From IMG/VR virus record IMGVR_UViG_2537561992_000036: 24,178 bases of DNA; one strand, given 5' to 3'. The position numbers are program-made. The stretch's first letter is position 1; the number at the start of each line of letters is the position of its first letter. Positions 1 to 3,000 of this stretch are shown piece by piece. The stretch comes from a virus (Duplodnaviria; Heunggongvirae; Uroviricota; Caudoviricetes).

Positions 1-3000
1 TTACTTCTTCGCCTCTGCAACCACTTTACTACCCACGCCGCGGTTATTGTATTCCCACATGCGGTTGTAGTTAGTGTCATTCAGATTGCGCTGTATTTCG
101 TCGTTATCATCTACGCTGCCGGTATTACCCGCAAACGGACGATTAGAGATCACCGCATCGGCCCACGGTTTAGCCGTGTTAAAACCTTCGTTGATGGCGC
201 TATCACGGATCACCACCTGACCGTTGGTATTGGCATCAACATCCAGCGAGCGGCCCAGTTGCGCCACACCATCACCGAAAGCATTGAAACGGCTGTTTAC
301 GGCGAGGAAACCGTAGTAAATGTTGGACAGCGTAGCCGGTGCAAACACATACGCTTCTTGCTGAGTACGTGAGTTCACCACGCGGAATTCGGTGTTATCG
401 AACACCACTGCGCCGCGACCAGAAACGATATCCACATCCCCTTCAATGTAGCTGTTGGTCACCAGCGTACGCGGCTGACGATTCGTTTCCAGACGGTTCT
501 GCACACCGCTGTTGGTGACAAAGAAGGTGTTCTGACGACCGAGAATGTTAACGTTGTTAATCTGTACCTGGTCACCATCAGTACGCAGTGCCACCGCCGG
601 ATGGTTACCTGCATCTACGCTATCGCCCAGCGTGTTTTCGATGGTCAGATTTTGCAGTTGCAGGCCATTGTTTTGTGACCAGAAGACCGCAGAGCAGAGA
701 ACACCGATACTGTCGCTGCGTTTGCTCTGGCAGCTATCGTACATATACCACGCTGGTTTACCTGGCATATATTTGCCGCGCGGGTTGACGTCGTGACGCC
801 AGTCGGCAGGGCTCATGCCACCATCAAGGGAAAGCCCAATCTTCACATCAATCGGTTTTTCACCTGTACCGTACAGAGTAATTCCACCCGGAGCGGCAGG
901 GACATATACCGTTCCCTGATACTCACCAGGCATCACGGCAATATACTGGCGCTTGTTGGTACGCTTGATAATTGCCGCATCTACCGCCGCCTGAATCGTG
1001 GTATGCGTTACACCTTGAGTGCCCGCCGGGCCGACAACAAAGTCAGGTTGCGCAGGCAGGGTAATCGGGGAAGGATTCCACGCTGCTGCACCTGGTGTCA
1101 GGGATGCAAAATAGTGTTGAGCATCGAAATTCTGCGCTTCTTTTGCCGACAGAATCGGGCGAGAAGAGGTACCAGGCGCGGTTTGATCAGAAGGACGTTG
1201 ATCGGGCGGGGTTGAGCTACAGGCGGTCAGCGTCACGCCAAAAGCCAATGCCAGCGCCAGACGGGAAACTGAAAATGTGTTCACAGGTTGCTCCGGGCTA
1301 TGAAATAGAAAAATGAATCCGTTGAAGCCTGCTTTTTTATACTAAGTTGGCATTATAAAAAAGCATTGCTTATCAATTTGTTGCAACGAACAGGTCACTA
1401 TCAGTCAAAATAAAATCATTATTTGATTTCAATTTTGTCCCACTCCCTGCCTCTGTCATCACGATACTGTGATGCCATGGTGTCCGACTTATGCCCGAGA
1501 AGATGTTGAGCAAACTTATCGCTTATCTGCTTCTCATAGAGTCTTGCAGACAAACTGCGCAACTCGTGAAAGGTCGGCGGATCCCCTTCGAAGGAAAGAC
1601 CTGATGCTTTTCGTGCGCGCATAAAATACCTTGATACTGTGCCGGATGAAAGCGGTTCACGATGAGTAGATGCAATTATGGTTTCTCCGCCAAGAATCTC
1701 TTTGCATTTATCAAGTGTTTCCTTCATTGATATCCCGAGAGCATCAACATGCAATGTTGTAGGGATGGCAATTTTTACGCCTGTTTTGCTTTGCTCGACA
1801 TAAAGATATCCATCTACGATATCAGACCACTTCATTTCGCATAAATCACCAACTCGCTGCCCGGTAACAACAGCCAGCTCCATTGCAAGTCTTAGCCAAC
1901 ATGGTGATGATTCTGCTGCTTGATAAATTTTCAGGTATTCGTCAGCCGTAAGTCTTGATCTCCTTACCTCTGATTTTGCTGCGCGAGTGGCAGCGACCGG
2001 GTTTGTTGTTATATGGCCTTCAGCTATTGCCTCTCGGAATGCATCGCTCAGTGTTGATCTGATTAACTTGGCTGACGCCGCCTTGCCCTCGTCTATGTAT
2101 CCACTGAGCATTGCCGCAATTTCTTTTGTGGTGATGTCTTCAAGTGGAGCATCAGGCAGCCCCCTCCTTATTGCTTTAATTTTGCTCATGTAATTTATGA
2201 GAGTCTTCTGCTTGATTCCTCTGCTGGCGAGGATTTTTTCGTAGCGATCAAGCCATGAATGTAACGTAACAGAATTATCACTGTTGATTCTCGCTGTCAG
2301 AGGCTTGTGTTTGTGTCCTGAAAATAACTCAATGTTGGCCTGTATTGCTTCAGTGATTGCTATCCTCCTGTCTCGGCCTAATCCAAACTCTTTACCCGTC
2401 CTTGGGTCCCTGTAGCAGTAATATCCATTGTTTCTTATATAAAGATTAGGGGGTAAATCCCGGCGCTCATGACTTCGCCTTCTTCCCATTTCTGATCCTC
2501 TTCAAAAAGGCTACCTGTTACTGGTCGATTTAAGTCAACCTTTACCGCTGATTCGTGGAACAGATACTCTCTTCCATCCTTAACCGGAGGAGGGAATATC
2601 CTGCATTCGCGCACCCATCGACGAACTGTTTCAAGGCTTCTTGGGCGTCGCTGGCGTGCATTCCACTCCTGAAGTGTCAAGTACATCGCAAAGTCTCCGC
2701 AATTACACGCAAGAAAAGCCGCATTGATGCGGCGATGGTAGGTCTGGATATCATTGAGCCATGAACAGGCCTCATCGAGTGTGAGGCTGTGGTTAGTCCT
2801 TTCGTAACTCGCTGATTCTCCTGTAAGTCTCTGGTGCTTTGTTTCCGTGTATCTTCATTTCAGACTTCAACAGAGCAACGAGGGAATCCCATTCGTTGAG
2901 GATGCCTTTGAATGCCGGAACGCGCTTTGCAACCTTGTCGAATGAATCTCTGATTTCTGGAATCTTCTCAACAAGTGCAACGCATCGTCGGAAGTCTGCT

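What the first reader, a model, noticed from the sequence alone, without database searches (positions are those of the whole stretch)
2435..2530. Xis C-terminus replaced and extended by a frameshift
The last 17 residues of lambda Xis are replaced by a different 28-residue tail that overlaps int by 55 nt. If real, Int-Xis cooperation in excision is probably impaired. Int itself looks intact.
Basis: partly seen in the sequence, partly recalled or inferred. Interest (0 to 1): 0.4.

Follow-up and report, generated by a model that had tools for sequence, protein, structure and literature searches.

The report
One-base frameshift in prophage xis gene
The excisionase gene of a dead lambda-like prophage carries one extra T that rewrites the protein's tail, but the change is found only in this one draft assembly, so it is most likely a sequencing error or, failing that, trivial gene decay.

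Summary
The frameshift is in the sequence as deposited. The xis ORF (2435..2686, minus strand, 83 codons) equals the 72-codon xis of phages 434 and HK022 plus one extra T in a T4 run (plus-strand A5 at 2504-2508). The 55-nt overlap with int is right, and Int is intact.

The window is 100% identical to a contig of the draft assembly of E. coli EPECa14 (ADUN01000092.1). The T5 allele was found nowhere else:
- none of 2,000 complete E. coli genomes and 57 phage records carrying this xis;
- no match in three contig collections;
- the 83-aa protein is absent from about 15 billion proteins.

The same 24 kb holds seven more one-base indels private to this assembly. Four of them break cII, O (twice) and P. 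In that stretch every substitution matches a paralogous prophage copy, which suggests a mixed repeat consensus.

The prophage is already defective in the whole O26:H11 lineage: the N-cI-cro region is lost, two IS elements are inserted, and several genes are pseudogenes.

Most likely this is an assembly artefact (about 0.6). Otherwise it is recent neutral decay that would remove Xis-Int cooperativity (about 0.35). Interest is low.

The parts
2435..2686 (-). The xis ORF as deposited, 83 codons. Codons 1-60 match 434/HK022-type Xis. Codons 61-83 are an out-of-frame tail read from the +1 frame of the int 5' end.
   Evidence: Pfam PF07825 on residues 1-62
2504..2508 (-). The homopolymer that carries the extra base: T5 on the coding strand (A5 on the plus strand). 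It is T4 in lambda, 434, five O26:H11 genomes and three other att-lambda prophages.
2467..2469 (-). The TGA that ends canonical 72-codon xis. It is out of frame here.
   Evidence: repaired translation
1419..2489 (-). int, 356 codons, intact. It overlaps the shifted xis ORF by 55 nt. The int Shine-Dalgarno sequence and ATG lie downstream of the extra T and are unchanged.
1331..1345 (.). attL core GCTTTTTTATACTAA, the junction between the chromosomal ybhC flank and the prophage P' arm.
   Evidence: the alignment with lambda attP diverges right after the core
1..1284 (-). ybhC, the chromosomal gene next to att-lambda. It is identical to the O26:H11 genomes.
10679..10679 (+). A private 1-nt deletion that frameshifts the cII C-terminus (AAGTATG becomes AAGATG). 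Context evidence on assembly quality.
10983..10983 (+). A private 1-nt deletion (AAA becomes AA) that frameshifts replication gene O.
11286..11290 (+). A private 1-nt deletion (A6 becomes A5), the second frameshift in O.
11795..11797 (+). A private 1-nt insertion (GG becomes GGG) that frameshifts replication gene P.
18543..18549 (.). A private T8-to-T7 change 16 nt upstream of the lpxR start codon.
19755..19761 (.). A private T8-to-T7 change in the T tail of a terminator-like hairpin after Q.
23178..23183 (.). A private A7-to-A6 change in an intergenic stretch.

Best explanation
The 83-codon xis is the ordinary 72-codon xis of phages 434 and HK022 with one extra T called in a T4 run. I judge it most likely a base-calling or consensus error in the draft assembly of E. 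coli EPECa14 (contig ADUN01000092.1), not a property of the strain.

Shown:
- the extra base;
- its uniqueness across every collection searched;
- the identity of the source assembly;
- seven further private one-base indels in the same 24 kb, four of which break cII, O (twice) and P.

Inferred: that these indels are errors, probably made worse because xis-int and cII-O-P occur in several near-identical prophage copies per genome, so reads from the copies were merged into one consensus.
For: 1. Uniqueness. Of 5,426 complete E. coli genomes, 2,000 carry this xis. The best matches are 99.7% over 320 nt, which is the T4 form, and none is 100%. Among 57 phage records none is 100%. The exact 83-aa protein is not among about 15 billion proteins. 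The T5 33-mer gives 0 hits in viral, genome and metagenome contigs, while the T4 control gives at least 120 viral contigs.

2. Source. Window 791-21063 is 100% identical to the draft contig ADUN01000092.1 of EPECa14, GCA_000188755.2.

3. Company. At all 8 one-base indel sites the window is the lone outlier against five O26:H11 complete genomes. Each of those genomes has 0-1 private indels over the same stretch. The cII-O-P stretch is full length in 1,224 complete genomes, and the best match is 99.5% with 1543 versus 1541 nt, as expected if none shares the four indels.

4. Frames. Lambda-like frames of cII, O and P are continuous in the relatives and broken in the window.

5. Paralog signal. 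In 10560-12800, every substitution and the 67-nt iteron block that separate the window from the att-lambda copy are identical to a paralogous prophage copy at 3.07 Mb in strain E2865. The only truly private differences there are the four indels: 4 indels against 0 private substitutions. The stretch alternates between the two haplotypes (11660 att-lambda type, 11700 paralog type, 11722 att-lambda type, 11817-12021 paralog type).

6. Clustering. Four of the 8 indels lie within 1.1 kb of a multi-copy region (up to 7 places per genome).
Against: No reads are available, so nothing here is direct.

The prophage is defective and under no selection, so real frameshifts are plausible. Frameshifts and stops shared by the whole lineage do exist (DUF6645 gene, TolA-like gene).

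Homopolymer lengths also vary among the complete genomes (sites 9410, 18657 and 21075). An indel-to-substitution ratio alone is therefore not decisive.

The first 2.5 kb (ybhC-int), both IS copies and lpxR carry no indels, so the assembly is not uniformly poor.

The paralog-type substitutions could come from real gene conversion. The sequencing technology of ADUN01 could not be verified with these tools.
Confidence: 0.6

Rival explanations
1. The extra T is a real, recent slippage mutation in strain EPECa14. It makes a Xis that still binds and bends attR DNA through residues 1-55. Its basic Int-recruiting tail is replaced by an acidic and hydrophobic 23-residue tail. Cooperative loading of Int at P2, and hence excision, would be lost. 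It is one more neutral decay step in a prophage that is already non-inducible.
For: The change is a +1 in a homopolymer, the commonest spontaneous indel type. The prophage has lost N, cI, cro and the pL/pR region to an IS-associated deletion, has a second IS element, a truncated Q' fragment, and shared pseudogenes. xis is therefore unselected. Tail charge flips from +6 to -5. The tail is the part linked to Int cooperativity. An independent one-base insertion at almost the same spot exists in one ENA contig (P0001, junction GSHFEED), so this frame is reachable.
Against: It is a singleton among thousands of carriers. It occurs with seven other private one-base indels. In cII-O-P these come with no private substitutions, which is unlike neutral divergence. 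P0001 is itself a singleton on a 3.8-kb metagenome contig and may also be an error.
Confidence: 0.35
2. The T5 allele is functional. Either it is decoded back into the normal frame by ribosomal or transcriptional slippage on the T run, or the 83-aa protein acts as a dominant-negative Xis. Such a protein would occupy X1-X2 without recruiting Int, and so lock this and co-resident 434/HK022-type prophages into the chromosome.
For: Residues 1-60 are untouched, so DNA binding should persist. In one search the listed O26 and related genomes hold up to 3 places with this xis, so trans effects are conceivable.
Against: There is no conservation at all: 0 other T5 sequences. From general knowledge, a run of five T is far below the length at which RNA polymerase slips efficiently. 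CUU UUU G is not a known efficient +1 site, and no stimulatory element was looked for or seen. No promoter remains to express xis (pL lost).
Confidence: 0.03

Closest known systems
Xis (excisionase) of phages 434 and HK022, and lambda Xis; 72 aa; Pfam PF07825; PDB 1pm6, 1lx8, 2ief
   Same: Residues 1-60 are identical to 434 Xis and match the HK022 chain 1pm6 apart from its C28S change. The DNA is 99.7% identical to 434 xis. The gene sits in the same place, directly upstream of and overlapping int next to attL. Removing one T gives the identical protein.
   Different: As deposited, residues 61-72 (LKRIRNGKKAKS) are replaced by FEEDQKWEEGEVMSAGIYPLIFI. The stop lies 32 nt further into int, so the overlap is 55 nt rather than 23 nt.
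C-terminally truncated lambda Xis mutants (Numrych, Gumport & Gardner 1992, EMBO J 11:3797)
   Same: The C-terminal tail is lost while the DNA-binding domain is kept. [quoted passage not shown]
   Different: Here the tail is substituted and lengthened by an acidic sequence rather than deleted. Nothing has been tested for this protein. I could not read the paper itself.
Homopolymer-length and collapsed-repeat consensus errors in draft bacterial assemblies
   Same: It is a one-base change in a homopolymer, private to one draft assembly. It is accompanied by other private one-base indels that split conserved ORFs. It lies in sequence that is multi-copy in the genome.
   Different: Read-level evidence and the sequencing platform of ADUN01 were not available, so this is an inference.
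The defective lambdoid prophage at att-lambda of E. coli O26:H11 (for example strain 11368, NC_013361.1 888856-...)
   Same: It is 99.9% identical over the window. It has the same insertion site, the same shared deletions and pseudogenes, and, in four of the five genomes fetched (not strain 11368), the same two IS insertions.
   Different: All of those genomes have the intact 72-aa xis (WP_001303849.1). The five that were fetched lack 67 nt of the ori iterons, which the window retains.

Membership tests
Lambda-type excisionase (Xis, Pfam PF07825 Exc) | N-terminal winged-helix DNA-binding domain (residues about 1-55) | tested here: met
   Pfam Exc E 2e-34 over residues 1-62. PDB 1lx8 (Xis 1-55) matches at E 4e-33 and 1pm6 at E 2.9e-37. 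Residues 1-60 are identical to 434 Xis.
Lambda-type excisionase (Xis, Pfam PF07825 Exc) | Basic, unstructured C-terminal tail (residues 56-72) directed at the Int N-terminal domain bound at P2 | tested here: not met
   In the deposited frame residues 61-83 have net charge -5, against +6 for the canonical 61-72. The role of the tail is taken from PMC4880445 and the Numrych 1992 title.
Lambda-type excisionase (Xis, Pfam PF07825 Exc) | Gene directly upstream of and overlapping int, next to the att site | tested here: met
   xis is at 2435..2686, int at 1419..2489, and the attL core at 1331-1345.
   PF09003 covers residues 1-69 and PF00589 covers 179-345. R212, K235, H308, R311, H333 and Y342 are present, with 1 difference from 434 Int.
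Programmed frameshift or transcriptional slippage site | The shifted arrangement is conserved across relatives | tested here: not met
   There are 0 other sequences with T5 among 2,000 genomes, 57 phages and three contig collections.
Programmed frameshift or transcriptional slippage site | A product in the restored frame is actually made | not testable with these tools
   This needs protein or RNA data.
Assembly or sequencing artefact (homopolymer miscall) | The change is a length change of a homopolymer and is private to one assembly | tested here: met
   T4 becomes T5. It is private to ADUN01000092.1.
Assembly or sequencing artefact (homopolymer miscall) | The same assembly shows an excess of other private one-base indels that break ORFs conserved elsewhere | tested here: met
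   There are 7 more private indels, of which 4 split cII, O and P. In cII-O-P there are 4 private indels against 0 private substitutions.
Assembly or sequencing artefact (homopolymer miscall) | Reads disagree with the consensus at the site | not testable with these tools
   There is no access to reads or to the other contigs of ADUN01.

The most novel reading that the evidence does not exclude
The T5 allele is real, and the 83-aa Xis, which would bind DNA but not Int, acts as a dominant-negative 'excision lock'. It would occupy the Xis sites of this prophage and of co-resident prophages with 434/HK022-type att sites, and so stabilise them in the chromosome.
Probability: 0.03. Interest if true: 0.35.

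Novelty: not a real feature. Interest (0 to 1): 0.08.

Why it matters
It matters little. If it is an artefact, it is a reminder that frameshifts in draft assemblies, especially inside multi-copy prophage modules, should not be read as biology.

If it is real, it is one more inactivating mutation in a prophage that the whole O26:H11 lineage already carries in dead form. It would be a natural counterpart of the laboratory finding that the Xis C-terminus is needed for Int cooperativity, but it would teach nothing new about excision.

Tried and rejected
1. Shared frameshifts. The database held 90-aa O fragments and 56-aa P fragments from other assemblies. I first thought this showed the window's frameshifts were shared, real alleles. 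Reading the sequences showed different junctions (GWN|NQW, LRK|PMGG, GWNK|QW; MPG|TV, MPE|TV). They are independent events, so I rejected the idea.

2. Indel-to-substitution ratio. I tried to use it as proof of error. The control on five complete genomes showed that homopolymer indels are about as frequent as substitutions there too. I keep the argument only in the weaker, local form: 4 private indels against 0 private substitutions in cII-O-P.

3. Chromosomal flank. I tried to fetch the flank of the EPECa14 contig to count frameshifts in housekeeping genes, using a YbhC look-up. Only other genomes were returned.

4. Primary papers. Numrych 1992, Warren 2003 and Abbani 2007 are not held. The role of the tail therefore rests on PMC4880445, PMC7145599 and a cited title.

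5. Sequencing platform. I searched the literature for EPECa14 / ADUN and found nothing useful.

6. The divergent patch at 21012-21080. I checked whether it equals a paralog. The best match anywhere is only 97.7%, so it stays unexplained.

7. Fusion to Int. The shifted frame is not the int frame, so I rejected the idea that xis is fused to int.

Full report
**What is in the window.** Positions 1..1284 (minus strand) encode YbhC, the chromosomal gene next to the lambda attachment site. The core GCTTTTTTATACTAA lies at 1331-1345. After it the sequence follows the lambda P' arm, then int (1419..2489, minus strand, 356 codons), then an 83-codon ORF at 2435..2686 whose first 58 residues equal lambda Xis. 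The window is the left end of a lambdoid prophage integrated at att-lambda.

**The observation.** I aligned the xis-int DNA with lambda, phage 434 and five O26:H11 genomes. There is exactly one length difference in xis-int. The window reads AGC CTT TTT GAA where every other sequence reads AGC/GGC CTT TTG AAG. The run is T5 on the coding strand, which is A5 at 2504-2508 on the plus strand.

- The G59S substitution relative to lambda is not part of the lesion. It is the normal state in 434, HK022 (PDB 1pm6) and all O26 relatives.
- The frameshift replaces residues 61-72 (LKRIRNGKKAKS, net charge +6) with 23 residues (FEEDQKWEEGEVMSAGIYPLIFI, net charge -5). These are read from the +1 frame of the first codons of int.
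- Deleting one base restores the exact 72-aa Xis of phage 434.
- The 55-nt overlap is right (23 nt in lambda).
- Int is intact: the arm-binding and catalytic Pfam domains are present, as are R212, K235, H308, R311, H333 and Y342, with one residue different from 434 Int.
- The int Shine-Dalgarno sequence and ATG lie downstream of the extra T and are unchanged.

**How widespread the allele is.** It was found nowhere else.
- This xis is present in 2,000 of 5,426 complete E. coli genomes. The top hits are all 99.7% over 320 nt, which is the T4 form, and none is 100%.
- None of 57 phage records is 100%.
- The exact 83-aa protein is absent from a collection of about 15 billion proteins.
- A 33-nt pattern spanning T5 has no match in the viral, genome or metagenome contig collections. 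The T4 pattern hits at least 120 viral contigs.
- The only other 83-aa Xis (P0001) is a singleton on a 3.8-kb ENA contig. Its junction is different (GSH|FEED), so it comes from an independent one-base insertion.

**Where the window comes from.** Two ORF fragments of the window are on record as proteins of E. coli EPECa14 (EFZ41255.1 and EFZ41257.1). Window 791-21063 is 100% identical to contig ADUN01000092.1 of the draft assembly GCA_000188755.2. That assembly's gene calls have no xis gene between int and the next gene.

**The surrounding prophage.** The window is 99.9% identical to the prophage at att-lambda of O26:H11 strains. RefSeq annotation of five such genomes shows this prophage is defective in the whole lineage:
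- a truncated sieB is followed directly by an IS3-family element (in four of the five genomes) and then cII, so N, cI, cro and the pL/pR region are gone;
- a second IS copy sits in the nin region;
- one antiterminator gene (Q') is truncated;
- the TolA-like and DUF6645 genes are pseudogenes;
- replication gene O is broken.

All five genomes keep the intact 72-aa Xis (WP_001303849.1). With pL gone, xis has no normal route to expression. A real frameshift would therefore be close to neutral and would change little.

**Is the extra T biology or error?** A base-by-base comparison with the five complete genomes shows that the window is the lone outlier at eight one-base indels:

| Position | Change | Location |
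|---|---|---|
| 2504 | A4 to A5 | xis |
| 10679 | T deleted | cII |
| 10983 | AAA to AA | O |
| 11286 | A6 to A5 | O |
| 11795 | GG to GGG | P |
| 18543 | T8 to T7 | upstream of lpxR |
| 19755 | T8 to T7 | terminator tail after Q |
| 23178 | A7 to A6 | intergenic |

- Each complete genome has only 0-1 private indels over the same stretch.
- Translation shows that cII, O (twice) and P are knocked out of lambda-like frames that are continuous in the relatives.
- The cII-O-P stretch is full length in 1,224 complete genomes. The best match is 99.5% with 1543 versus 1541 nt, as expected if none shares the four indels.
- Similar truncated O and P fragments in other assemblies have different junctions. 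They are independent events, not a shared allele.

**The most telling result.** The result from cII-O-P carries the most weight. Every substitution that separates the window from the att-lambda prophage of O26 between 11176 and 12021, and the 67-nt block of ori iterons, is identical to a paralogous prophage copy elsewhere in O26 genomes (strain E2865 at 3.07 Mb). At flanking and interspersed sites (10669-10907, 11660, 11722, 12307) the window keeps the att-lambda type. The region therefore alternates between two paralog haplotypes. Its only truly private differences are four one-base indels, against zero private substitutions.

That is what a consensus built from reads of collapsed, near-identical prophage modules looks like. 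It is not what neutral divergence looks like. The xis-int module is also multi-copy: the listed O26 and related genomes hold up to 3 places, and the highest in any genome is 4.

**Limits of that inference.**
- I have no reads.
- I could not verify the sequencing platform.
- Homopolymer lengths also vary among the complete genomes.
- The paralog-type substitutions could reflect real gene conversion.
- The first 2.5 kb, both IS copies and lpxR carry no indels.
- A decaying prophage is exactly where real frameshifts accumulate.

I therefore put about 0.6 on artefact, about 0.35 on a real recent slippage mutation, and a few percent on anything functional.

**What it would do if real.** The winged-helix domain is untouched, so binding and bending at X1-X1.5-X2 should persist. 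The C-terminal 18 residues are absent from the crystal structures and are rich in Arg and Lys. In the excisive complex, the tail of the X1-bound Xis points at the Int N-terminal domain bound at P2. This fits the known Xis-Int cooperativity (PMC4880445). Xis at X1 recruits the Int N-terminal domain to P2 (PMC7145599). The title of Numrych et al. [quoted passage not shown] Replacing LKRIRNGKKAKS with an acidic and hydrophobic tail should abolish that step and hence excision. This is an inference; nothing has been tested for this protein. Recoding by slippage is unsupported, because the T5 arrangement is not conserved anywhere.

**Verdict.** The caveat wins. The lesion is private to one draft assembly and keeps company with other private one-base indels in multi-copy prophage DNA. 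Even if it is real, it sits in a prophage that is already dead. It is ordinary and of low interest.

Noticed in passing
window 9177-10492 and 14121-15436: Two inverted copies of a 1316-bp IS3-family element, each with a 108-aa and a 296-aa ORF. The first sits between a truncated sieB and cII, so the N-cI-cro immunity region is missing. The second interrupts the nin region. Both insertions are shared with four of the five O26:H11 genomes compared; strain 11368 lacks the first.
   Followed up: partly
window 11176-11243: The window keeps a 67-nt block of the ori iterons inside gene O. The five closest O26:H11 genomes have lost it, which is their O 'frameshift'. The block is identical to a paralogous prophage copy in strain E2865.
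   Followed up: yes
window 10679, 10983, 11286, 11795: Four further one-base indels private to this assembly break cII, O (twice) and P. In the same stretch there are no private substitutions, and the sequence alternates between two paralog haplotypes.
   Followed up: yes
window 21012-21080: A short, dense patch of substitutions and indels around a hairpin plus T-run. This is a perfect terminator-like hairpin (GGCTGCGCA TT GCGCAGCC + T8) in the relatives and is disrupted in the window. The best match in 5,426 genomes is only 97.7% over 221 nt, in a region present in up to 6 copies per genome.
   Followed up: partly
window 17568-18527 (minus strand): A gene for an LpxR-family lipid A deacylase (319 aa, intact) sits as a cargo gene between a truncated antiterminator remnant and a second, intact Q gene. 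One of the private T-run differences lies 16 nt upstream of its start codon.
   Followed up: no
window 21164-23028: The DUF6645-family gene is split into 108-aa and 513-aa ORFs. The same gene is annotated as frameshifted in all five O26:H11 relatives, so this frameshift is shared and real, unlike the private ones.
   Followed up: partly
P0001 (ENA contig, 3.8 kb): A second 83-aa Xis with the same out-of-frame tail arises from a different one-base insertion (CTTTTG becomes CATTTTG, junction GSH|FEED). It is a singleton, so it is either an independent mutation or another sequencing error.
   Followed up: partly
L010 and L016, 8706-9866: In two other genomes the gene next to ybhC is a 386-aa product with both a Gam domain and the lambda Int domains. 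This is possibly a Gam-Int fusion left by a deletion that removed xis and the genes in between.
   Followed up: no
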